Source: a virus. Taken from it: a stretch of DNA of 64,000 bases. The stretch is from positions 6,857-70,856 of the IMG/VR virus record IMGVR_UViG_3300025120_010288. One strand, given 5' to 3'. The notes below the pieces were generated by a model. The model saw only the letters and a list, made by a program, of their open reading frames with translations, had not been told where the DNA came from and searched no databases. Position 1 is the first letter of the stretch, and each line of letters begins with the position of its first letter. Shown piece by piece: positions 27,742-53,294 of this stretch. Made by a program: the position numbers and the translations under genes.

Positions 27742-30054
27742 ATGCCAGACCAATCGAATGATATTGAACTAATTATTGAAAATGCAGTAAGATATGCTGT
27801 AGAAAAAATGCACGAATATGTAACAACCGAACACTTGTTATATAGTTTGTTGCATACACAACCGTTTAGGAAATTGCTTACACAATTTGGTGTTGATACA
27901 CAAGCACTCAGCCAGGAAATTGATGCTTACATGAGCAGTTTAACAGCCGTACAATCACAAGAAAAAATCATAAAACCAAAGAAAACAAACACAATTGAAC
28001 GTGTGGTTAATCGAGCATTAACACAAGTCATGTTCCAAGGACGTAGTAGTATTACACCAATTGATTTGTATCTTAGTATAATGAGCGAAGGCAACAGCCA
28101 TGCACAGTATTTTTTAATGAAGTATGGGGCAAATAACGCAACATTCATGCAATGGTTAAACAAACAAAACAAAGGCAATGGTAACGAAATGCCAGGGCAA
28201 CTTACAGAAAAAGCTGCACATGAGATATTAAATGAGTACTGTGATAACATTACAGAAAAAGCTGCTGAAGGACTACTAGAGCCTATTATAGGACGAGACC
28301 AAGATATTGATGATATGATTGATGTATTAGCTAGAAAATTTAAAAGTAATGTGTTATTAATTGGTGACCCCGGCGTTGGTAAAACTGCACTTATTGATGG
28401 ATTAAGTACTAAAATTGTAAACGATGAAGTACCTGAATACTTACAGGGACATGATGTGTACGAACTTAATATTGGTAACTTGTTAGCAGGCAGCAAATAC
28501 CGCGGTGACTTTGAAGAAAAATTAAAATATATTATAGAAGCTCTTAGTAAAAATAAAAATAGTATATTATTTATTGACGAAGCACACACTATGAGAGGGG
28601 CTGGTGCTACAGGTGGTGGCAGTGTTGATTTTGCAAACATGATTAAACCAGCACTTAGTAGAGGTACTCTTAAAGTTATTGCTAGTACTACATTTGAAGA
28701 ATTTTACGAAACGTTTGAAAAAGACCGAGCATTGATGCGTAGATTCCACAAACAAACAGTTGGGGAACCTACTCCTGAAGTTACTGAACAAATATTAATT
28801 GGCGTTAGCACAAGACTTGAACAATATCATAATGTATTAGTTGACACTGATGCTATTATGAGTGCAGTAGAATTAAGCAACCGCTATATAACTGATAAGA
28901 AGAATCCAGATAAAAGCATTGATTTAATTGATGCAGTATGTGCTAAATTACGTGCAAAAGATTTGAAAGAAGCTACAGTAACAAAAGAAATGATTGTTGA
29001 TCAAGTTAGCAGTGTTACTCAAATCAGTATAGATAGATTAGACAAAAGCAATAGCGACAAACTTACTAATCTTGAAACAAATATTAAAAGCAAGATATAT
29101 GGCCAAGATACGGCAATTGACGAGATATTATCTAAAATTTATGTAAGTTTTAGTGGTATTGGAAATCCAAATCGCCCAATGGCAAGTTATCTATTTTTAG
29201 GGCCAACTGGCACAGGCAAAACTGAAGTTGCAAAACAACTAAGTGAACAATTGAGCATGCCTTTAATGAAATATGATATGAGTGAATATCAAGAAAAACA
29301 TACATTAAGTACACTAATAGGTGCACCTCCTGGATATGTTGGATTTGAAGACAGTAGTTTACAAGGTGGTAAATTAATTAGCGATATTAACAAAAATCCT
29401 TTTAGTATTTTGTTGTTTGATGAAATTGAAAAAGCTCATCCAGATGTTACTAATATATTGTTGCAAATGTTAGACGAAGGAAATATTACCAGCAACAACG
29501 GAAAAGCCGTAAGTTGTAAAAATTGTTTAATTATACTTACAAGTAACTTAGGTGCGGCCGCAAGCGAACGAAACAACATTGGATTTGGGAATCAAGAAAA
29601 GACCGGTGAAGACGATAAAGCTATGAAACAATTTTTTAAGCCTGAATTTAGAAATAGGATTGATAGCATATGTAAATTTGATCATCTAAGTGAATTAAGT
29701 ATTAAAAAGATTGTAGTTAAATTTTTAAATGAATTACGTGAGTCATTAAGTGACAAAAAAATTAAACTTGATATATCAGAAACTGCGATAGATTATATAG
29801 CAACTAGTGGTTATGACAAGAAGATGGGTGCAAGACCACTTAGTAGAAAAATTGACAGTCTGGTGCGAGTCCCGTTAAGTAAAAGAATACTGTTTAATAA
29901 TCTTCAAGATACTATTATAAAGATAGACTTTGTTGATGGTGACATAGTATTTGAAGAAAAAGAATTATCTACTGTGGATTTAGAACCAGTAGTTGGTTCT
30001 GTAGACCAATCAGGATATATAGTAATTGACCGTTTTAAACCTAAAGATCAATAA
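27742..30054 (+). CDS. clpA: ATP-dependent Clp protease ATPase subunit ClpA
   Basis: Clp N-domain, GDPGVGKT and GPTGTGKT, IGF loop; no ClpB middle domain; TAAATA at 27706. Confidence 0.92.
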   Translation: MPDQSNDIELIIENAVRYAVEKMHEYVTTEHLLYSLLHTQPFRKLLTQFGVDTQALSQEIDAYMSSLTAVQSQEKIIKPKKTNTIERVVNRALTQVMFQGRSSITPIDLYLSIMSEGNSHAQYFLMKYGANNATFMQWLNKQNKGNGNEMPGQLTEKAAHEILNEYCDNITEKAAEGLLEPIIGRDQDIDDMIDVLARKFKSNVLLIGDPGVGKTALIDGLSTKIVNDEVPEYLQGHDVYELNIGNLLAGSKYRGDFEEKLKYIIEALSKNKNSILFIDEAHTMRGAGATGGGSVDFANMIKPALSRGTLKVIASTTFEEFYETFEKDRALMRRFHKQTVGEPTPEVTEQILIGVSTRLEQYHNVLVDTDAIMSAVELSNRYITDKKNPDKSIDLIDAVCAKLRAKDLKEATVTKEMIVDQVSSVTQISIDRLDKSNSDKLTNLETNIKSKIYGQDTAIDEILSKIYVSFSGIGNPNRPMASYLFLGPTGTGKTEVAKQLSEQLSMPLMKYDMSEYQEKHTLSTLIGAPPGYVGFEDSSLQGGKLISDINKNPFSILLFDEIEKAHPDVTNILLQMLDEGNITSNNGKAVSCKNCLIILTSNLGAAASERNNIGFGNQEKTGEDDKAMKQFFKPEFRNRIDSICKFDHLSELSIKKIVVKFLNELRESLSDKKIKLDISETAIDYIATSGYDKKMGARPLSRKIDSLVRVPLSKRILFNNLQDTIIKIDFVDGDIVFEEKELSTVDLEPVVGSVDQSGYIVIDRFKPKDQ

Positions 30055-33087: not shown

Positions 33088-33161
33088 GCGGGTGTCGTAT
33101 AATGGTATTACCTGAGATTTCCAATCTCATGACAGGAGTTCGATTCTCCTCACCCGCTCCA
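33088..33161 (+). tRNA. tRNA-Gly (TCC)
   Basis: GCGGGTG/CACCCGC acceptor stem, TGAGA-TTTCCAA-TCTCA anticodon arm, TTCGATT T-loop, encoded CCA. Confidence 0.95.
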
Positions 33162-34173: not shown

Positions 34174-34250
34174 CTGCCCTTAGCTCAGCTGGATAGAGCA
34201 AGTGCCTTCTAAGCACTAGGTCGGAGGTTCGAATCCCTCAGGGCAGGCCA
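34174..34250 (+). tRNA. tRNA-Arg (TCT)
   Basis: CTGCCCT/AGGGCAG acceptor stem, AGTGC-CTTCTAA-GCACT anticodon arm, TTCGAAT, CCA. Confidence 0.95.
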
Positions 34251-34299: not shown

Positions 34300-36786
34300 A
34301 TGGATATACATGAGCTAGAAAACTACCAATTATCAGATGCAGTGAAATTTCACCAAGCATTAAATCCCGTACTATGGAACAGTAACGAACATTTAGAACC
34401 AGAAGTTCGAGATGCGTTGTTGTCAATGGCTGATGATTTTAGAGAATTCCTCGGCGTGCCTGCGTTAGATATTAAAGATATCACTGTCAGTGGCAGTAAC
34501 AGTGCTTATAATTATACACCAACTAGTGATATAGATTTACACCTTGTTGTAGATATTTCAAAACTCAAAGACAATGAAATATATGCAGAGCTATTTAATG
34601 CTAAAAAATATCAATACAACGATTTGCACAACTTTCATGTTGGAGATCATGACGTTGAATTGTATGTACAACAAGCAGATGAAACGCATCATTCACAAGG
34701 AATTTATAGTTTAGTTGACAATGAATGGAAACGTGTACCCAGTCGAAAGTTTCCAAAAATAGATGACATGAGTGTACAAAACAAGTACGAAGATTTAGGT
34801 CATCGTATTGAAGCTGCTATTGCCGATGGTGGAATAGAAGAATTAACCAGTATTAATGAAAAAATTGGAAAAATTCGCAGTAATGGATTAGAAACAACTG
34901 GCGAGTTTGGACCTGAGAACTTATCTTTTAAATTGTTACGTAACAATGGATTAATTGATGAATTACGCAATGCCCTCAATAATGCTGTTGATGATGAGTT
35001 TAGTATTAAAGAAACTACTCCTAGCATACTAGATGAAATATGGGGATTTGCTTCTAGGAGTGGATCTAGCCGAAGCCGTGGTACAATTAAAAAGAAAAAA
35101 GAAAAGTTTGAACCTAGTACTAGAGACAAATTAATAGCACGTAGACAAGCAGCTGCAAAAGGCGATAAAGATGCGTTCCGTAAAAGTTATGATCAACTAT
35201 CTAAAGAAAAAGAAGTAACTGAAGTAATTGACGAACCACAAGAAGTTGAAAACATTGTAATTACGATTAAAAAATTTGTAGACTACTGTAAAGACTATTT
35301 GAAAATAGAAACTGTTCCAATTATACGTATTAAAAAAGACCCACAGTGGAGTAAACGCAACAAAACATTTGGACAATATGACAGTTTAAATAATTTACTT
35401 CATATCAGTGTTGCAAATCGACACACAGTAGATGTACTTAGAACATTAGCCCATGAACTAGTACACCGAAAGCAAACGGAACTAGCCGATCTTCCGTATG
35501 ATGCTGGCACAACTGGTAGTCACTGGGAAAACGAAGCCAATGCTGGCGCTGGTATCATAATGCGTAACTTTGCTGAACAAAACCCAAGTGCATTTGTATT
35601 TGAAAGCAGCGGGTATATTCCAACTGCAGCACAAGCTAACGATCCACGATACAGTATGGCACTAACCAAAGATGTACGACCTGGCGCTATACATAAAAAT
35701 GCTAAAAAGATGGGATGGAAAACTGATAAGTTGGGAAGACCTCCTGTTATGATGAAAAAAGCTGCAAAAAACAGCACTCCTAATAAACTTTTTAATTTGG
35801 GATTAAGTGAGGATATTTCACAACCACAATTAGACGGTCTGGAAACAATTGTTGATCGTGCATTTAGTAAAGTAGGTATTGATGTTGAGTTTACTCGACA
35901 TTTTTTACAAAGAGCAAACGATGATCGTAACGGTGAACCAATTACTATAAAAGAATTAGGTCAAATATTTGCTAAAGAATATAAGCGTTGGGGCAAACCT
36001 ATTGCACAAATGGGGCCTGATACACAAGCAGTAATGAAAGATTTAGAAAGCGATATTAATATCCCATTCGCTCTAAATTGGAATGGCAAAGAACTAGAAC
36101 TAGTTGCTAAAACTGTAATGCGTAAGAAAAACTTTAAAACACCAAATCAAGAGTTTAGAGTTGAAAACAAAGTAAACGAAGCATTGGATAATCCATATCC
36201 TTATACACTAGAAGGACCTAGCAAAATTGGCACTTGGGTAGGAAAAGCAGACACACCTAATGGTCCACTAGTTATGGACTTTGACGGAAATGAAAATCAA
36301 GATGATTTTAGTATTGACTTTTCAGTTAACAGAAGAATGGGCCTTGAAGGTACCGGAGATGCATTTAGAATATTCGCTACAGTTGTAGCAATAATGAATG
36401 AATGGATATCCAAAGTAGGCATTGAACGTGTACAACAATTTGATTTTAACGCTGACAAAGAAGAACATGACAGTGACGGTAGATCAAAATTATATGATCG
36501 CTTTGCAAAAAAACTTGCTAGCCAATTGGGATGGAGTGTACAAAAGAGTGTTACAGGCAATGGTAGTACAGACTTCTTTTCACTACAGAATCCAAAACTA
36601 CAAACAAATGAAAACTTTGCTGACGGTAAGAAAAAAGGTAAAAGTCGTCCAGGTAGAGTAAAGAAGTCAGGTGCTAGTTGTAATGGCACAGTAACACAGT
36701 TGCGTAAACGTGCTAAAAATTCAAGTGGTGAGAAGGCTAAAATGTATCACTGGTGTGCAAATATGAAGTCAGGAAAGAAAAAATGA
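34300..36786 (+). CDS. multidomain (polyvalent) protein: Pol-beta nucleotidyltransferase, zincin metallopeptidase and further modules
   Basis: GS...Y.Y...SDIDLH and DVELY; RTLAHELVH..Q....E.EANA; modules separated by IKE/LDE/VTE/VFE/LSE/VNE/TNE. Confidence 0.85.
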   Translation: MDIHELENYQLSDAVKFHQALNPVLWNSNEHLEPEVRDALLSMADDFREFLGVPALDIKDITVSGSNSAYNYTPTSDIDLHLVVDISKLKDNEIYAELFNAKKYQYNDLHNFHVGDHDVELYVQQADETHHSQGIYSLVDNEWKRVPSRKFPKIDDMSVQNKYEDLGHRIEAAIADGGIEELTSINEKIGKIRSNGLETTGEFGPENLSFKLLRNNGLIDELRNALNNAVDDEFSIKETTPSILDEIWGFASRSGSSRSRGTIKKKKEKFEPSTRDKLIARRQAAAKGDKDAFRKSYDQLSKEKEVTEVIDEPQEVENIVITIKKFVDYCKDYLKIETVPIIRIKKDPQWSKRNKTFGQYDSLNNLLHISVANRHTVDVLRTLAHELVHRKQTELADLPYDAGTTGSHWENEANAGAGIIMRNFAEQNPSAFVFESSGYIPTAAQANDPRYSMALTKDVRPGAIHKNAKKMGWKTDKLGRPPVMMKKAAKNSTPNKLFNLGLSEDISQPQLDGLETIVDRAFSKVGIDVEFTRHFLQRANDDRNGEPITIKELGQIFAKEYKRWGKPIAQMGPDTQAVMKDLESDINIPFALNWNGKELELVAKTVMRKKNFKTPNQEFRVENKVNEALDNPYPYTLEGPSKIGTWVGKADTPNGPLVMDFDGNENQDDFSIDFSVNRRMGLEGTGDAFRIFATVVAIMNEWISKVGIERVQQFDFNADKEEHDSDGRSKLYDRFAKKLASQLGWSVQKSVTGNGSTDFFSLQNPKLQTNENFADGKKKGKSRPGRVKKSGASCNGTVTQLRKRAKNSSGEKAKMYHWCANMKSGKKK

Positions 36787-37337
36787 GAGCTATTCAATTC
36801 ATAGAAAGTACAATATATGAACAGTTAGGTAGAAAACTACCCGATTCTGCAGAAATTTATGTTGACATGGATGGTGTATTAGCTGATTTTTTTGGTGAGT
36901 GGACTAAAATGATGAATGTCAAAAACTGGAAAGACATCAAAGATATACAACCTGCATTGCAAAAAATACGCAACACAGAAAATTTTTGGTTAAACTTGCC
37001 ATTGCTACCCGAAGCTAAAAAGTTACTAATGTTAATTAAAAAAGTCAAAGGTAGTTACAATATATGTACAAGTCCTCTAGCCGATGATCCTAGAAGTGAG
37101 CCGCACAAGCGTGAATGGATTAAAAAGAATCTAGCATTTTTCCCACCAAAAAACATTTATATTACACATGATAAACCACAGTTTGCCAAAAACCCAGATG
37201 GTACTCCTAATATACTAATTGATGACTTTGGTAAAAACATTGCAGCGTGGGAAGCAGCAGGTGGTATTGGATTTAAATACAAAGACACAAAATTTAATAG
37301 AACAGCCAAAGCACTCAGCATGGCAGAAAACGGATAA
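36783..37337 (+). CDS. 5'(3')-deoxyribonucleotidase (NT5C HAD) with an N-terminal MRAIQFIE tag
   Basis: YVDMDGVLADF, K.EWI, ILIDD...NI..W..AGG.G. Confidence 0.88.
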   Translation: MRAIQFIESTIYEQLGRKLPDSAEIYVDMDGVLADFFGEWTKMMNVKNWKDIKDIQPALQKIRNTENFWLNLPLLPEAKKLLMLIKKVKGSYNICTSPLADDPRSEPHKREWIKKNLAFFPPKNIYITHDKPQFAKNPDGTPNILIDDFGKNIAAWEAAGGIGFKYKDTKFNRTAKALSMAENG

Positions 37338-37345
37338 ATATATCT

Positions 37346-37579
37346 ATGAGGGCAAAACAGTTCATACGTAATACAAGAAACCAATACAATCATCCTTCAG
37401 CGGCAGGCGCTGGGTTGAAAACCTATACTATGAAAATTAAACTCAAACAGCCTGGGTATACTCAAATAGTTGACACTACAGTACAGGCTCGCACTCCAGA
37501 AATGGCACGTAGAATTATACGTCAGCAACACAATAACCGAAATGTAATAGTTGGAACACCTCGGGAAATCAAAAGCTAA
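37346..37579 (+). CDS. small basic late protein
   Basis: TAAATA 5 nt upstream; starts MRAKQFI. Confidence 0.7.
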   Translation: MRAKQFIRNTRNQYNHPSAAGAGLKTYTMKIKLKQPGYTQIVDTTVQARTPEMARRIIRQQHNNRNVIVGTPREIKS

Positions 37580-37587
37580 ATAAAAAT

Positions 37588-37872
37588 GTGGAAAACATTT
37601 TTGTAAAAGCAGCTTTTGATATTCATTGTCGTCCTTTGAAAGGAACAGTACCCGTTTACCGAATATATGTTGACGGTGAATTGTTTACTGAACGTAAATG
37701 GGTGTGGAATAAAAACGAATACCTTACACAAATATTACAAATTGAAGCACCCCCAGGGGAATACGAAATAGAATTTGAGAGCTGGGATACTGAATTAAGC
37801 ACTTACAATTACAAAATACTTGTAGGTGACAATACTAGTTGGATAGATAAAGACAGGTTGTTAATTGGATGA
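37588..37872 (+). CDS. hypothetical late protein
   Basis: TAAATA 5 nt upstream of GTG; YRIYVDGELFTER. Confidence 0.7.
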   Translation: MENIFVKAAFDIHCRPLKGTVPVYRIYVDGELFTERKWVWNKNEYLTQILQIEAPPGEYEIEFESWDTELSTYNYKILVGDNTSWIDKDRLLIG

Positions 37873-38036
37873 GAGCAATTGAATTTATAAAAGAAGAAGC
37901 AACAACTAGTTCTAATGTTGCTGTAGTAAGCCAAAATATGAATGGTGTTATAACTCGCAACAACGAGCCCGATAAGCATAAATACCTATATACAATTAAT
38001 AAGAAAAGGTACCAAAATGCTAGCCCAAAATCTTAA
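37869..38036 (+). CDS. small protein with MRAIEFIKEE tag (55 aa, not in ORF track)
   Basis: ATGA-coupled; N-terminus matches neighbouring tags. Confidence 0.65.
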   Translation: MRAIEFIKEEATTSSNVAVVSQNMNGVITRNNEPDKHKYLYTINKKRYQNASPKS

Positions 38037-38460
38037 AGTTTTATTAGCCAGTAGTTATGCATTCGGATTGAAAGCACAAAACTTTCATTGGAATGTAGAA
38101 GGACTAAACTTCTCGGAATATCATTTATTCTTTGAGAACTTATATAATGAAGTAAACAACAACACTATCGATAGATGTGCTGAATTTGTGCGTGTGTTAG
38201 ACGAATATAGCCCTGGTAGTTTTAGCCGATTTCAAGAACTTAGTTTAATTGAAGATCAAACTAAGATTCCACGTGCAATGTTAATGTTTGAAGAACTTGA
38301 TAGAGATAACACTATTATACTAGAACATTTGCGTCCCACCTTTGAATCAGCACAAGAAGAAAAACACGAAGGCATTGCAAATTTTATTGCTGAGAGAGAA
38401 GATGCTCATGGCAAACACGGTTGGATGCTTAAAAGTTTTTTAAAAGGAAATAGAGTATGA
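38017..38460 (+). CDS. dps: Dps/ferritin-like DNA protection protein
   Basis: NFHWNVEG.NF..YH.FFE, D..AE, K..WML. Confidence 0.92.
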   Translation: MLAQNLKVLLASSYAFGLKAQNFHWNVEGLNFSEYHLFFENLYNEVNNNTIDRCAEFVRVLDEYSPGSFSRFQELSLIEDQTKIPRAMLMFEELDRDNTIILEHLRPTFESAQEEKHEGIANFIAEREDAHGKHGWMLKSFLKGNRV

Positions 38461-39242
38461 CAAGCACTAGTATGACAGACATACTTGCAGGCTTTAACAA
38501 AGCAGCTAGTGGTAAAAATGTTAGCAGATCGAGCAAGGGTGACCCAAATGATATGTTTGCAATCCTTCAAAGGTTAGACGAAACCAAAGAAGGACCTGGT
38601 ACACCAACATTAGGAGCTAAAGCTAAGATACCTAATATTTCTCCAGTATTAGGAACTAACAAACCTATCAAACATCCTCTTGATGGGTACTTAGTAGGAG
38701 AAGATGTTGAAGATTTACGTGAACTAGGTGACCGGGCTGAACGAGATCATGAAGTACAAATGGCAAGATCAGACTTGTATAAAATTGCAAAGTATGCCAT
38801 GAAACTTCATTCCATGTTAAAAAATGTAAGTGAAGAAGAAGGCATCGAAGGCTGGAAACAAAGTAAAATTACTAAAGCAGCTGATTATATTGGTAGTGTA
38901 TATCACTCACTTGACTACGAAACAAATGTTGAAGATGAAGTTGTAATACAAACCGAAGATATACTTAGTCAACTACAAGCAGAAATTGGTGATGTACTAT
39001 CTGATGTAAGCGATAGTTTGGATGACAAAGACATACAAGATATGATGCCTGACAAAGGTGATACACTTGGAACAATAGTAAAAACAATTACTACAGATGA
39101 CGGACGTGATATTAAAATTACTGGTAACGAAGATGATGGTTTTCGGGTAGTAATTAAAGATAAAACAAGTGAAAGTAGTTTTGCAAACTTAGAAGAAGCA
39201 TCAATGGCTGTTGAGATGTACTGTGCAAGGAATGCAAAATGA
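38457..39242 (+). CDS. modular late hypothetical protein
   Basis: DHEVQMARSDLYK...W.QSKITKAADY module flanked by acidic linkers. Confidence 0.75.
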   Translation: MTSTSMTDILAGFNKAASGKNVSRSSKGDPNDMFAILQRLDETKEGPGTPTLGAKAKIPNISPVLGTNKPIKHPLDGYLVGEDVEDLRELGDRAERDHEVQMARSDLYKIAKYAMKLHSMLKNVSEEEGIEGWKQSKITKAADYIGSVYHSLDYETNVEDEVVIQTEDILSQLQAEIGDVLSDVSDSLDDKDIQDMMPDKGDTLGTIVKTITTDDGRDIKITGNEDDGFRVVIKDKTSESSFANLEEASMAVEMYCARNAK

Positions 39243-40291
39243 TTATAAGACAACTCTTTGAATCACAAATACCAAACATTGCTGATCGAGAGTTTACAGT
39301 TGACAACCATACCTATTATACAGATATTGATGATGATGGGGATGTTAGAAAACTTTGGCATTATTTAGAATTGCCAAATGGGGATGTAGTTGAACCAGAT
39401 TTTACTCCATACGAACGCATGGATGTAGACACAGTTAGAGCCTTTATAGAACAAGGGTATCCCAAGAGAAAAGGACCAGGACCATTGCGTAAATCAGATT
39501 TTATAACAAGCGAAAGCCGCGAAACAACTAAAACACAATTGGTAGCTGCTGATATTGGTCGTATACTAATGGACAAAGGGGCAAAGACAAACGACATGAA
39601 ACTGTCGGTACTGTTAAGCCGTTTAGGCGATGAGCTAACTAGATTTGGCGAGCCTTTTGCTGCTAAAAATACTACAGATCTTGCTAAAGCTGTTGGAATA
39701 AATGTTGCACAAATCAACAAACTTATCAAATATGGACAGGCAATACTCAACAGAGATGGGCCAATTGATCCTAGAACGCTAGGTGGGAAAAGTGATCTCG
39801 ACGAGGCATGGGCTGGAGATGCAGATATTAAAAGCACAGGTAAATGGGCTGGTAAAACTATTGCCGAGCTTCAGAAACGCCGTAATGCATTAAAGAAAAA
39901 AGAAAAAAGAACATCAGCCGAAAGCACCGAGTTACGACAAATTAATTTTGCTATACGTAGCAAAAAAGACTGGAAAGGTAAAGTAGCTGAAGAAATGTCA
40001 ACTACACCACACGATGATGTTGAAGTAAAAAATCCAAAAACTGGAATGACTCAAACAGTTTCTAAAGATAAAGCCAAGCAATTGATACGCAAAGGTTATC
40101 AAGTTGTAGGTGTCCATCACAATGAATCAATTACAGAAGCACAGTTTAACGAAGCAGCAGGCGAAAAAGATGCTTGCTATCACAAAGTTAAAAGTCGTTA
40201 CAAAGTATGGCCTAGTGCATATGCTAGTGGCGCACTAGTTAAATGCCGCAAAGTTGGTGCTGCTAACTGGGGCAACAAAGGTAAAAAATAA
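39239..40291 (+). CDS. modular late protein (putative head internal polyprotein)
   Basis: MIIRQLFE tag; ends with KDACYHKVKSRYKVWPSAYASGALVKCRK module. Confidence 0.75.
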   Translation: MIIRQLFESQIPNIADREFTVDNHTYYTDIDDDGDVRKLWHYLELPNGDVVEPDFTPYERMDVDTVRAFIEQGYPKRKGPGPLRKSDFITSESRETTKTQLVAADIGRILMDKGAKTNDMKLSVLLSRLGDELTRFGEPFAAKNTTDLAKAVGINVAQINKLIKYGQAILNRDGPIDPRTLGGKSDLDEAWAGDADIKSTGKWAGKTIAELQKRRNALKKKEKRTSAESTELRQINFAIRSKKDWKGKVAEEMSTTPHDDVEVKNPKTGMTQTVSKDKAKQLIRKGYQVVGVHHNESITEAQFNEAAGEKDACYHKVKSRYKVWPSAYASGALVKCRKVGAANWGNKGKK

Positions 40292-41412
40292 TGATTATAC
40301 AGGATTTCATCACAGAGAAGTGTTGGAAAGGCTACAAAAAGAAGGGCATGAAAACCATGTTCGGAAAACGTGTGCCTAACTGTATTAAGAACGAAGATGT
40401 TGGCGGCGAGTATAGTGCATGGGATCATGAATACCCTGTAGAATATGCAGAATTTTTAGGTAAAACATTTGGTCCACCAGACGAACTGACTAAAGAACAA
40501 GCAGTTTGGCATGACAAAGACGGATTCAAAAGAATTGTTGTAAGAGATGAATATATCTTACATGGATCACCAGCACCACACTATGACTTTGTATACTGTT
40601 ATGTTGACTTAGAAGTGCCAGAAGAACTAAGTGATGAACTAGCAAAATGTAGTGGTAGTATACTAATTGATCATCTGAAGAATGAAGTAGGCGCACGTTG
40701 TGGTAGTCTTACTGCAAATGCAACTACACTAAACTTTGTAATGGATGTAGTAGCAGGTAGAGTAGAACCAACAAAAGAAGAATACGAAGCTCGTATACTT
40801 GGTATGAAGAAACAATTTGAAGACGGCGAACGCTATGAATTAGATTGGTGGCCAGATGAATCAAGTGACGCAGATCCAGATAATCCTTACTATGCAGAAG
40901 GCATCAAAGAAGATCTTAAAGCCTGGTTTGGTAAAGGCAAAAAAGGCGGTGCTGGCGGAGGTGGATGGGATCGTTACAATACTAAAGGCGAACGTATTGG
41001 AAAATGCGGAGATGCCAGTAAAGGCGAAGGCAAACCTAAATGTTTAAGCAAAAGCAGAGCTGCAAGTCTACGATCCAAAGGTGGTAAGAAAGCTATTGGT
41101 GCTGCAGTTAGTAAAAAGCGTAGAAACGATCCAAATAAAAATCGCAAGGGCAAAGCTAAAAACGTAAGCAACACAGTAAAAGAATCTAAAGTAAGTGTAT
41201 TGGATGCAATCAATCGTATTGTCGACAATCAACAGGCTGAAAACGTAAAGTTGTCTGATGGTCGGGTATTAATTGATTTGTTCACAGCTAGTGCAATACA
41301 GCAAGTATACAATGCTGTAAATGACACAAATAAAGAAAAAATATCTCAAAAAATAAACACCAGCAGTGGTCTAAATCAAATAGCAAGTTTTGCATTTAAA
41401 CAACTTACATAA
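40291..41412 (+). CDS. modular late protein (putative head internal polyprotein)
   Basis: MIIQDFITE tag; CWKGY..VPNC module, acidic domain, DLKAWFG basic module, DLFTASAI module. Confidence 0.75.
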   Translation: MIIQDFITEKCWKGYKKKGMKTMFGKRVPNCIKNEDVGGEYSAWDHEYPVEYAEFLGKTFGPPDELTKEQAVWHDKDGFKRIVVRDEYILHGSPAPHYDFVYCYVDLEVPEELSDELAKCSGSILIDHLKNEVGARCGSLTANATTLNFVMDVVAGRVEPTKEEYEARILGMKKQFEDGERYELDWWPDESSDADPDNPYYAEGIKEDLKAWFGKGKKGGAGGGGWDRYNTKGERIGKCGDASKGEGKPKCLSKSRAASLRSKGGKKAIGAAVSKKRRNDPNKNRKGKAKNVSNTVKESKVSVLDAINRIVDNQQAENVKLSDGRVLIDLFTASAIQQVYNAVNDTNKEKISQKINTSSGLNQIASFAFKQLT

Positions 41413-52676: not shown

Positions 52677-53294
52677 ATGCCACTAATACCAATGGTTGTA
52701 GAACAAACTACTCGAGGAGAACGTAGTTGGGATATTTACTCACGTTTAATGACTGACCGTATTGTAATGTTAAACGGTCAAGTTGAAGATAATATGGCAA
52801 ATGTTATTGTTGCACAATTATTATTTTTAGAGAGCGAAGATCCAGACAAAGATATTAATTTATACATCAACAGTCCAGGCGGCGCCGTGACAGCGGGCTT
52901 GGCTATTTACGATACTATGCAGTTTATCAAATGTGATGTGCGTACTATTGTAATGGGCCAGGCCTGCTCGATGGGCAGTTTTCTATCACAAGCAGGCGCA
53001 GTTGGTAAACGTAATGTGTTGCCAGAATCACGTACAATGATACATCGAGTAAGTAGTGGAACACGTGGCACTAATGGCAGTGTACATGTGCAAGAACTAC
53101 AGTTTGAGGATGCTATTCGTAGCATGGAAGAAAGTAAAAAAGTAAACAAACGTCTTACTGAACTTTATGTTAAACACAACACAAAAGGTAAGACATATGA
53201 AGAACTATTTGAAACAATGAAGTTTGACACATTCCTTACAGCAGAAGAAGCAGTTGAATATGGACTAGCTGACACTGTAGTTGACAAACGATAA
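52677..53294 (+). CDS. clpP: Clp protease proteolytic subunit
   Basis: [18 protein letters not shown] (Ser), MIH (His), D.FLTAEEA.EYGL.D. Confidence 0.96.

What the first reader, a model, noticed from the sequence alone, without database searches (positions are those of the whole stretch)
34300..36786. 828-aa polyvalent protein: nucleotidyltransferase, zincin, possible BECR RNase and GNAT-like modules
Seen: a Pol-beta-type NTase (GS, DID, third acidic residue in DVELY; about 34300-35013) and a basic peptide. Next come an HELVH metallopeptidase (about 35224-35604), a short module, a FTRHFLQR...KTVMRK module (35812-36170), a TGDAFRIFATV...RSKLY module (36181-36600) and a Cys2 basic tail. Established: polyvalent proteins of phages and conjugative elements combine such domains for early host conflict. 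Inference: the FTRH module may be a BECR/RelE-like RNase and the next a GNAT-like fold. The NTase, encoded right after tRNA-Arg, might repair or modify tRNA ends or nucleotidylate host targets.
Basis: partly seen in the sequence, partly recalled or inferred. Interest (0 to 1): 0.7.

Follow-up and report, generated by a model that had tools for sequence, protein, structure and literature searches.

The report
Jumbo-phage multi-enzyme polyvalent protein
This is a real 828-residue phage protein that strings several different enzyme-like modules together, one member of a very large and unnamed family in uncultured marine giant phages, and it may be cut into separate early-acting enzymes.

Summary
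Fold predictions and searches back four calls:
- a Pol-beta nucleotidyltransferase with an intact GS/DxD/E set;
- an HExxH+E gluzincin;
- a RelE/RegB-like (BECR) module, whose conserved His aligns with RegB His48;
- a truncated GNAT-like module, whose cofactor motif is not canonical.

A basic, two-helix C-terminal tail closes the protein. Only the NTase gets any Pfam match, and it is below threshold.

The modules are independent units. They recombine in thousands of proteins (8211 clusters at E<=0.001) from T4-like marine phages, some with genomes of about 340-365 kb.

New here:
- Almost every module start follows a hydrophobic-x-Glu motif.
- Unrelated first modules share an M-x-I/L-x-E-L/F N-terminus, like the ITE-6 propeptide of T4 Alt.
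- Two of three complete relatives encode a T4-type prohead protease.

My reading is a polyprotein cut at its junctions into separate early effectors, possibly carried in the capsid. The cutting and the packaging are inferred, not shown.

The tRNA-repair idea is not supported: 0 of 30 related loci have a tRNA gene nearby.

The kind (polyvalent protein) is known. This family and its junction pattern did not turn up in the two searches and two main texts I checked.

The parts
34300..36786 (+). 828-aa polyvalent protein gene (P0001)
   Evidence: Single ORF. The N-terminus MDIHEL matches the family consensus.
34300..35013 (+). Module 1, residues 1-238: Pol-beta-fold nucleotidyltransferase plus a four-helix C-domain
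35014..35238 (+). Basic, poorly ordered linker, residues 239-313
   Evidence: pLDDT 35-68. 18 K+R, net charge +5. It holds the [LI]xE sites 244-246 and 310-312, and site 236-238 ends at its start.
35239..35595 (+). Module 2, residues 314-432: minimal gluzincin metallopeptidase (HELVH plus E410)
35596..35814 (+). Module 3, residues 433-505: conserved but poorly ordered motif region (SGYIP...DPR...ALT.D..PG...); it moves relative to the zincin in relatives
   Evidence: pLDDT 38-64. In relatives it sits directly after the zincin or behind inserted domains. No Pfam match at E<=10.
35815..36162 (+). Module 5, residues 506-621: RelE/RegB-like (BECR-fold) module, probable endoribonuclease
36181..36600 (+). 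Module 6, residues 628-767: truncated GNAT-like fold, related to DUF6934 in relatives
36610..36783 (+). Tail, residues 771-828: very basic two-helix module (NFADG...MYHWCANM...KKK)
   Evidence: Net charge +15. Helices have pLDDT 83-92. It is 75-93% identical in relatives whose other parts are 45-50% identical. In viral clusters it is fused to ART-PolyVal, NT5C, GNAT, NUDIX, Pterin_4a and Sod_Cu. There is one copy per genome, at the polyvalent locus, in 3 of 3 complete relatives.
36783..37337 (+). Downstream 5'(3')-deoxyribonucleotidase (NT5C) gene; its start overlaps the polyvalent gene's stop (ATGA). It is fused to the same module set in relatives.
   Evidence: Pfam NT5C 5.2e-11. Overlap seen in the sequence. 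PF06941 lies inside relatives P0004-P0006.
34174..34250 (+). tRNA-Arg(tct) directly upstream; not a conserved neighbour
   Evidence: ARAGORN. 0 of 30 related loci hold any tRNA gene.

Best explanation
P0001 is a polyvalent (multi-effector) protein of an uncultured marine phage with T4-type replication genes; some relatives have genomes of about 340-365 kb.

It joins these parts in order:
1. a Pol-beta-fold nucleotidyltransferase that looks catalytically competent;
2. a basic linker;
3. a minimal gluzincin peptidase;
4. a conserved linear-motif region;
5. a RegB/RelE-like endoribonuclease module;
6. a truncated GNAT-like module;
7. a strongly basic two-helix tail.

Shown: the modules, their folds, the conserved catalytic-type residues in the NTase, zincin and RNase modules, and the shuffling of modules among thousands of relatives.

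Inferred: the protein is made as one chain and then cut after the hydrophobic-x-Glu motif that precedes almost every module. The cutting enzyme would be the phage's T4-type (S77) prohead protease, its own zincin, or both. The pieces then act separately early in infection. The RNase module most likely cuts mRNA at the ribosome, as RegB and RelE do. The NTase and zincin would modify or cut host or phage proteins or nucleic acids. The basic tail would hold the chain on nucleic acid.

Whether the pieces travel in the capsid and enter with the DNA, as T4 Alt and the internal proteins do, is the least certain step.
For: Anatomy
- ORF and motifs.
- AlphaFold models: mean pLDDT 77.8 and 78.6, with the NTase, zincin and RNase modules mostly at about 85-97.
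- NTase: GS, DxD and E are 88-100% conserved; fold hits.
- The RNase topology has an extra first helix, two helices and a sheet. That matches the description of RegB in PMC3014915 (passages seen).
- Its His in helix 1 and Thr in the last strand fit the BECR active-site pattern described in PMC5512222 (passages seen).

Modularity
- 8211 cluster representatives at E<=0.001.
- Modules occur alone, re-ordered, or fused to PolyA_pol/CCA enzyme, SLT+LysM, amidoligase, GP88, dCMP deaminase, ParB_N, GNAT, zeta-toxin kinase, NT5C, PAP2, NUDIX, SOD and ART-PolyVal.

Processing
- In P0001, 4 of 5 BLAST-defined internal boundaries have a [LIVMF]xE within 3.5 residues (binomial tail 9e-4).
- In 376 family proteins the motif directly precedes 139 of 203 module-3 starts, plus 49 more with one spacer residue. 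It precedes 40 of 40 module-6 starts and 61 of 91 tails; Glu is at P1 in 87 of 91 tails.
- N-termini read M-x-[IL]-x-E-[LF] in 295 of 367 proteins, whichever module comes first.
- T4 gp21 cuts after L/I-x-E (PMC9026906). It removes six residues from Alt at ITE-6 and 63 residues from Alt's C-terminus (PMC5694885).
- An S77 prohead protease is encoded in 2 of 3 relatives that are at least 99% complete.
- A peptidoglycan hydrolase (SLT+LysM) sits in one relative's chain, P0007. Iyer et al. read that feature as a sign of injection.
Against: - No proteomic or expression data exist for this protein or for any close relative.
- The gene sits among replication and auxiliary genes (ClpA-like, cytidylyltransferase-like, NT5C, ferritin, DNA polymerase), not among head genes.
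- The own record has no S77 protease, but it is a 20% fragment. One of three complete relatives shows none at E<=0.01.
- The N-termini of window ORFs do not resemble the T4 IPIII targeting peptide more than internal Met-12-mers do: 3 of 86 against 4.3% at score >=15.
- Glu-containing motifs are common in linkers, and the family rows are not independent observations.
- The RNase module of P0001 has Q537 where 28 of 31 relatives have D.
- The GNAT-like module lacks alpha1-alpha2 and a canonical Q/RxxGxG/A loop.
Confidence: 0.55

Rival explanations
1. It is a cytoplasmic multi-enzyme, not packaged. The chain, whole or cut only by its own zincin, is made after infection and works in the cell on nucleotides and RNA. 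The basic tail tethers it to DNA or RNA. The hydrophobic-x-Glu motifs are ordinary linker or helix-cap features.
For: - The conserved neighbours are replication and auxiliary genes, not head genes.
- The RNase module lies next to DNA primase and nucleotide-metabolism genes in phages Melnitz and phiM12.
- Many fusion partners are nucleotide enzymes: NT5C, NUDIX, dCMP deaminase, cytidylyltransferase, CCA enzyme.
- Similarity to the T4 IPIII targeting peptide is not above chance.
Against: - In T4 the genes of packaged proteins (ipI-III, alt) also lie away from the head genes, and ipI-III lie beside the tRNA genes.
- The shared N-terminal M-x-I-x-E-L on unrelated first modules and the Glu kept before module starts need some common reader.
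- SLT+LysM in relative P0007 makes little sense for a purely cytoplasmic protein.
Confidence: 0.3
2. It is a tRNA repair or modification hub. The NTase rebuilds or modifies tRNA 3' ends, helped by the RNase and GNAT-like modules, and this explains the position right after tRNA-Arg.
For: - tRNA-Arg ends 49 bases upstream.
- Some relatives fuse the RNase, GNAT-like and tail modules to a CCA-adding/poly(A) polymerase head domain with its RNA-binding part (P0007; P0009, P0013, P0071).
- Jumbo phages are reported to use NTases in RNA repair (PMC7824862, passages seen).
Against: - 0 of 30 related loci hold a tRNA gene within about 6 kb.
- The NTase matches minimal NTases, ANT/AAD, CD-NTases and TENT5 about equally weakly. 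No class II CCA enzyme or RlaP match was listed.
- The CCA-enzyme fusions replace this NTase rather than accompany it.
Confidence: 0.07
3. The RelE-like and GNAT-like modules are non-catalytic adaptors (pseudo-enzymes). They only bind a conserved partner, such as the ribosome, a nucleic acid or a capsid part, and so aim the true enzymes.
For: - The RelE-like module is unusually conserved (about 60-85% identity) across very different architectures, often as the N-terminal domain.
- RegB's second catalytic His68 is not matched.
- The GNAT-like module lacks alpha1-alpha2 and a canonical cofactor loop. Antizyme, a non-enzyme, is among the fold hits.
Against: - The nearly invariant residues of the RelE-like module are just those expected of a BECR active site: His in helix 1, Thr in the last strand, flanking Arg/Lys (PMC5512222).
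- High conservation is also what a ribosome-dependent RNase would show.
Confidence: 0.15
4. It is one integrated structural (virion) protein whose parts fold together.
For: None beyond its size.
Against: - The modules occur alone and in many orders.
- The models show separate compact domains joined by low-confidence linkers, with pTM 0.47.
Confidence: 0.03

Closest known systems
Polyvalent proteins of phages and conjugative elements (Iyer, Burroughs, Anand, de Souza, Aravind 2017; PMC5512222)
   Same: Several unrelated catalytic domains lie in one chain. A zincin-like metallopeptidase is among them, along with BECR-type RNase and GNAT-type modules. Relatives are extreme mosaics. Release of the units by proteolysis is proposed for that class too.
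   Different: [quoted passage not shown] Here an NTase heads a phage protein.
- The words marine, cyanophage, Synechococcus and amidoligase do not occur in that text.
- No Pfam PBECR or other family matches the RNase module.
- The gene is not beside virion genes.
- The paper's supplementary architecture lists could not be seen and may include relatives.
T4 RegB endoribonuclease, and the RelE/YoeB toxins
   Same: - Same order of secondary-structure elements, including RegB's extra first helix (PMC3014915).
- A RegB-named phage protein is a BFVD hit.
- The conserved His and Arg align with RegB H48 and R52 in an H-x-L-D-R-A stretch.
   Different: - There is no significant sequence similarity (hhalign probability 1.7%).
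- RegB His68 has no counterpart.
- The module is fused into large chains and is far more conserved than toxin RNases usually are.
- No antitoxin-like partner was looked for.
T4 Alt and internal proteins IPI-III (capsid-packaged, ejected effectors processed by gp21)
   Same: - A short N-terminal peptide ends in I-x-E followed by Leu (IHE-5 here, ITE-6 in Alt).
- A C-terminal piece of about 60 residues follows an x-x-E site (TNE-770 here, LTE-619 in Alt).
- The genes lie outside the head module. In T4, ipI-III lie beside tRNA genes, and alt does not.
- Two Alt-named proteins are among the BFVD fold hits (ranks 39 and 50; the aligned part is not reported).
   Different: - HMMs of modules 5, 6 and the tail find nothing in T4 Alt.
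- Alt's C-terminal propeptide is acidic, whereas this tail is very basic.
- Resemblance to the IPIII targeting peptide is not above chance.
- Packaging is untested.
Minigluzincins (selecase, abylysin, jannalysin) and Wss1/SprT-type peptidases
   Different: - The third ligand is probably Glu410 on the next helix, as in gluzincins.
- It is not the HExxHx5H His of Wss1/SprT: no His follows at that spacing.
GNAT acetyltransferases, and Pfam DUF6934
   Same: The beta-sheet/helix core superposes over 100-120 residues. Relatives' equivalent region gets sub-threshold DUF6934 hits.
   Different: Helices alpha1-alpha2 are absent, and the Q/RxxGxG/A loop is replaced by a longer loop that keeps only G-D-x-F-R.

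Membership tests
Polyvalent proteins (Iyer et al. 2017) | Two or more disparate catalytic-type domains in one polypeptide of a phage or conjugative element | tested here: met
   Four fold-assigned enzyme-type modules plus a tail. The phage origin is shown by T4-type DNA polymerase and clamp loader in the window and by the IMG/VR record.
Polyvalent proteins (Iyer et al. 2017) | Zincin-like metallopeptidase domain (the commonest domain of the class) | tested here: met
Polyvalent proteins (Iyer et al. 2017) | Mosaic shuffling of the domains among relatives | tested here: met
Polyvalent proteins (Iyer et al. 2017) | Delivered into the host with the DNA (virion-packaged), or encoded beside virion or transfer genes | not testable with these tools
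   No proteomics is available. The neighbours are replication and auxiliary genes. The indirect hints are motifs only.
Pol-beta nucleotidyltransferase superfamily | hG[GS] motif, DxD on the next strand, and a third acidic residue on the adjacent strand | tested here: met
   G65-S66, D77-x-D79 and E120, conserved in 29-33 of 33 rows. The strands are in the expected order.
Pfam NTP_transf_2 (PF01909) / Polbeta (PF18765) | Score above the family's gathering threshold | tested here: not met
   14.6 bits against a cut-off of 21. 16.3 and 13.8 bits for the module alone. So it belongs to the superfamily by motifs and fold, but not to these curated families.
Gluzincin metallopeptidases | HExxH helix plus a Glu ligand on a following helix | tested here: met
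   H385, E386, H389 and E410 (20 residues between H389 and E410) are conserved in 28-30 of 33 rows. Helices 376-395 and 408-427. Metal binding itself was not tested.
BECR-fold RNases (RelE / RegB / PBECR) | N-terminal helix or helices followed by a four- to five-stranded sheet | tested here: met
BECR-fold RNases (RelE / RegB / PBECR) | [quoted passage not shown] | tested here: met
   H534 29/31 and T605 31/35, with R538, K604 and R608.
Pfam PBECR families | Match to a curated PBECR model | tested here: inconclusive
   No Pfam family at E<=10 for the module alone or at E<=1 for the whole protein. I did not confirm which PBECR models the library holds.
GNAT acetyltransferases | GNAT core fold (beta-sheet splayed between beta4 and beta5, with helices alpha3 and alpha4) | tested here: met
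GNAT acetyltransferases | Acetyl-CoA pyrophosphate loop Q/R-x-x-G-x-G/A after beta4, and helices alpha1-alpha2 | tested here: not met
   The loop N677-D687 is longer. Only G686 (17/20) and D687 (16/22) are conserved, and there are no helices between the first strands. So the fold is GNAT-like, but I do not file it as a GNAT enzyme.
T4-type capsid-targeted proteins (IPs, Alt) | N-terminal propeptide ending in L/I-x-E that gp21 removes | tested here: inconclusive
   The motif is present (IHE-5, and in 295 of 367 family proteins). Cleavage is untested. The IPIII-peptide likeness is not above chance.
T4-type capsid-targeted proteins (IPs, Alt) | S77 (gp21-type) prohead protease in the same genome | tested here: inconclusive
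   None in the own record, which is a 20% fragment. Present in 2 of 3 complete relatives.

The most novel reading that the evidence does not exclude
T4-like marine phages, jumbo phages among them, may use a common 'cargo grammar'. It has three parts: a five-residue M-x-I/L-x-E N-terminal tag, hydrophobic-x-Glu joints before every module, and a basic two-helix tail. Under this reading dozens of unrelated enzymes (NTases, RegB-like RNases, GNAT-like modules, CCA enzymes, lysozymes, ARTs, nucleotidases, NUDIX, SOD) can be strung into polyproteins, loaded into the prohead, diced by the gp21-type protease and ejected with the DNA. That would be a plug-and-play version of the T4 Alt / internal-protein system on a much larger scale.
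Probability: 0.25. Interest if true: 0.75.

Novelty: new variant of a known kind. Interest (0 to 1): 0.55.

Why it matters
The family is very large: 8211 cluster representatives at E<=0.001. Yet five of its seven segments (linker, module 3, RNase, GNAT-like module, tail) match no Pfam model at E<=10, and the zincin gets only chance-level hits.

It gives names and testable active sites to abundant 'hypothetical' genes of ocean phages. It also adds a RegB/RelE-like RNase that is unusually conserved.

If the junction motifs are protease sites, the family would show how large phages pack and release a changeable set of early effectors. It would also offer a natural tag set for loading foreign proteins into capsids of non-model phages.

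Tried and rejected
- Sequence libraries. NCBIfam and PADLOC gave 0 families. Pfam gave only sub-threshold hits. A PDB sequence search with the protein and with both alignment profiles gave nothing useful.
- Foldseek of the C-terminal model against PDB: 0 matches at E<=0.001, best 1.0e-3.
- Likeness of window N-termini to the T4 IPIII targeting peptide, read from locus L004. 3 of 86 ORFs scored >=15, against 4.3% of 394 internal Met-12-mers, so it is not above chance. One small ORF (37869) was not in the ORF set.
- HMMs of modules 5, 6 and the tail against T4 Alt: no hit. Alt's C-terminal propeptide is acidic, unlike this tail.
- hhalign of modules 5 and 6 against T4 RegB: probabilities 1.7% and 0.7%. 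These are not significant. The local H-x-L-D-R-A match is a lead only.
- S77 protease in the own record: none, and no control rang.
- Module 5 in three complete relatives: 0 of 3. So it is an optional module, not part of the invariant frame.
- Paralogous modules elsewhere in the window: none.
- tRNA synteny: 0 of 30 loci.
- A HeH/SAP-like reading of the tail rests on my own pattern recall and has no tool support, so it is left as speculation.
- Virion proteomics for phiM12-type phages: a search listing of 8 papers showed none with such data for the module-5 protein.
- The supplementary files of PMC5512222 were not seen.
Full report
**Observation**

The window holds one open frame at 34300..36786 (+) of 828 codons. 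It lies 49 bases after tRNA-Arg(tct) at 34174-34250. The window is part of a 70.9-kb IMG/VR virus record that CheckV rates 20% complete. It also carries a T4-type family-B DNA polymerase and a clamp loader.

**Size and nature of the family**

- A full scan of 1.84 billion cluster representatives found 8211 with E<=0.001, 5807 with E<=1e-10 and 1485 with E<=1e-30.
- The word-indexed search found 1654 proteins of 455-1449 aa among the 8000 candidates scored. For residues 496-770 alone it found 2560 shorter proteins among 2891 candidates.
- Of the 119 listed relatives, 102 cover the N-terminal module, about 100 the zincin, 17-28 the two C-terminal modules and 42 the tail.
- The same modules occur alone or in other orders. 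They are also joined to PolyA_pol plus its RNA-binding part, SLT+LysM, Amidoligase_2, GP88, DUF5661, ParB_N, dCMP deaminase, GNAT, zeta-toxin/AAA kinases, NT5C, PAP2, cytidylyltransferase, NUDIX, Pterin_4a, Cu/Zn-SOD and ART-PolyVal.
- Among cultured phages, only the first module (at most 37% identity) and the RelE-like module are found. The RelE-like module occurs in Methylophilales phage Melnitz (a 149-aa stand-alone gene), in Sinorhizobium phages of the phiM12 group (as the C-terminus of a 602-aa protein), and in a Paraglaciecola and a Flavobacterium phage. The GNAT-like module has one weak match, in Vibrio phage 207E48.1 (33% identity).
- Some relatives sit on contigs of 343-364 kb, one of them with terminal repeats.

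**Modules**

I predicted two models. Residues 1-500 used 34 aligned sequences (mean pLDDT 78.6). Residues 496-828 used 39 sequences (mean pLDDT 77.8).

2. *Residues 239-313.* This is a basic linker with low confidence.
4. *Residues 433-505.* This stretch is conserved but poorly ordered (SGYIP...DPR...ALT.D..PG). In relatives it can sit far from the zincin.
5. *Residues 506-621.* The model has pLDDT about 90. Its order is an extra helix, a strand, two helices and a sheet.
   - In the viral structure library, a 140-aa 'site-specific RNA endonuclease' of a coliphage is hit at E 1.8e-4 with TMt 0.62. The tool does not say which part of my model aligned.
   - RegB is described as a 153-residue cyclizing RNase with catalytic His48 and His68, an extra first helix, and structural likeness to RelE and YoeB (PMC3014915, passages seen).
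   - An hhalign of the module's alignment with T4 RegB is not significant (probability 1.7%). It does lay H534 and R538 on RegB H48 and R52 within a shared H-x-L-D-R-A stretch. His68 has no counterpart.
   - T532, H534, R538, K604 and T605 are kept in 89-97% of rows. This fits the pattern of His in the first helix and Ser/Thr in strand 4 that Iyer et al. give for BECR RNases (PMC5512222, passages seen).
   - P0001 itself has Q537 where 28 of 31 relatives have D.
7. *Residues 771-828.* This part has net charge +15 and two confident helices. It is 75-93% identical even in relatives whose other parts are 45-50% identical. The Cys and His residues are absent from a common variant. Three complete relatives have one copy each, at the polyvalent locus.

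**A pattern at the joints**

- In P0001 the [LIVMF]xE motif has a density of 1.8%. Yet 4 of the 5 BLAST-defined internal borders have one within 3.5 residues: E238, E435, E504 and E627 (binomial tail 9e-4). The fifth border has TNE-770.
It directly precedes 139 of 203 module-3 starts, and 49 more with one spacer. It precedes 40 of 40 module-6 starts and 61 of 91 tails, with Glu at P1 in 87 of 91 tails. S[LIV]xE occurs 224 times among 272 matches of a loose [LMF]S[LIV]x[EQN] pattern in 231 proteins; that pattern was not restricted to the NTase end.
- These rows are homologues, so they count as about six observations, not hundreds.
- N-termini read M-x-[IL]-x-E-[LF] whichever module comes first. 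The counts are 186 of 217 NTase-first, 78 of 95 RNase-first, 13 of 14 of a third class, 3 of 3 GNAT-like-first, 15 of 34 with an unassigned first part and 0 of 4 others.
- T4 gp21 cuts after L/I-x-E (PMC9026906, passages seen). It removes six residues from the ejected enzyme Alt at ITE-6 and 63 residues from Alt's C-terminus at LTE-619 (PMC5694885, passages seen). The T4 Alt N-terminus read from the genome agrees.
- A Peptidase_S77 gene is present in 2 of 3 relatives that are at least 99% complete.

Results against this reading are as follows. The own record shows no S77 gene, but it is a fragment. Window N-termini are no closer to the T4 IPIII targeting peptide than chance. No module matches T4 Alt by sequence. 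Alt's C-terminal propeptide is acidic, not basic.

**Context**

The upstream block is kept in 18-40 of 80 related loci. It runs ClpA/B-like AAA+ protein, three small genes, a cytidylyltransferase-like gene and a glycosyltransferase-like gene. Ferritin-like and DNA polymerase genes follow in 9 and 23 loci. No tRNA gene occurs in any of 30 related loci. The downstream NT5C gene overlaps the stop codon (ATGA) and is part of the same chain in relatives. In T4, the genes of packaged proteins also lie outside the head module, and ipI-III lie next to the tRNA cluster. So the context does not decide between packaging and a cytoplasmic role.

**Reading**

- Shown: a modular chain with NTase, gluzincin, RelE/RegB-like and GNAT-like folds; conserved catalytic-type residues in the first three; free recombination of the modules.
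- Inferred, in falling order of confidence:
  1. The RNase module is an active, probably ribosome-linked mRNA endonuclease.
  2. The chain is cut at the hydrophobic-x-Glu joints.
  3. The cutter is the gp21-type protease, and the pieces ride in the capsid.
- Main rival: a cytoplasmic, non-packaged multi-enzyme.
- The tRNA-repair idea has little left in its favour.

**Comparison and novelty**

The kind, polyvalent proteins, is known (PMC5512222). [quoted passage not shown] It does not contain the words marine, cyanophage, Synechococcus or amidoligase. A full-text search for 'polyvalent protein' with 'jumbo' and 'metagenom' gave three papers. The jumbo-phage review among them (PMC7824862, passages seen) does not describe this family. 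Supplementary tables were closed and may list relatives. I therefore rate it a new variant of a known kind, with an untested but concrete processing hypothesis.

**Limits**

- There are no expression or proteomic data.

Noticed in passing
window 36783-41412 (also 1655-2206): Several neighbouring ORFs start alike: MRAIQFIES, MRAKQFIRN, MRAIEFIKEE, MIIRQLFES, MIIQDFITE, and MRQVIDLIEAS further away. Two of them (39239-40291 and 40291-41412) end in or contain conserved basic, Cys-bearing motifs that hit phrog_727. Their likeness to the T4 IPIII targeting peptide was not above chance. The shared N-termini remain unexplained.
   Followed up: partly
window 27742-30054 and 52677-53294: The phage encodes its own ClpA/ClpB-like double-AAA+ protein (Clp_N, AAA, AAA_2, ClpB_D2-small) and a ClpP-like protease (phrog_94 'head maturation protease', 7e-48). 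The ClpA-like gene is a conserved upstream neighbour of the polyvalent gene in 35 of 80 related loci. Whether the shared N-terminal motif could be a Clp recognition tag was not tested.
   Followed up: no
window 36783-36786: The polyvalent gene's stop and the NT5C gene's start overlap as ATGA. In relatives P0004-P0006 the NT5C domain is part of the same polypeptide, so this looks like a gene split or fusion point.
   Followed up: partly
window 35596-35814 (residues 433-505): A conserved but low-confidence stretch (SGYIP...DPR...ALT.D..PG...G.PP) behaves as a mobile unit. It follows the zincin directly, or comes after large insertions, and its second half often precedes the RelE-like module. It may be a docking peptide. 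No function is assigned.
   Followed up: partly
window 35908-35910 (residue 537): P0001 has Gln where 28 of 31 relatives of the RelE-like module have Asp, inside the H-x-L-D-R stretch that aligns with RegB. This could change the activity of this particular copy.
   Followed up: no
window 33088-33161 and 34174-34250: tRNA-Gly(tcc) and tRNA-Arg(tct) flank a glycosyltransferase-like gene just upstream. None of 30 related loci has a tRNA gene there, so they look like a recent insertion into a conserved gene block.
   Followed up: yes
window 38017-38460: A ferritin/Dps-like gene (Pfam Ferritin, 2.2e-16) is conserved downstream of the polyvalent gene in 9 related loci.
   Followed up: no
BFVD hits of model m6ca07da230dc: Two proteins named Alt / split RNA polymerase ADP-ribosylase, from an Acinetobacter and an Aeromonas T4-like phage, match part of the C-terminal model at E 2e-4 to 8e-4 (ranks 39 and 50). 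The tool does not report which module aligned. HMMs found nothing in T4 Alt itself.
   Followed up: partly
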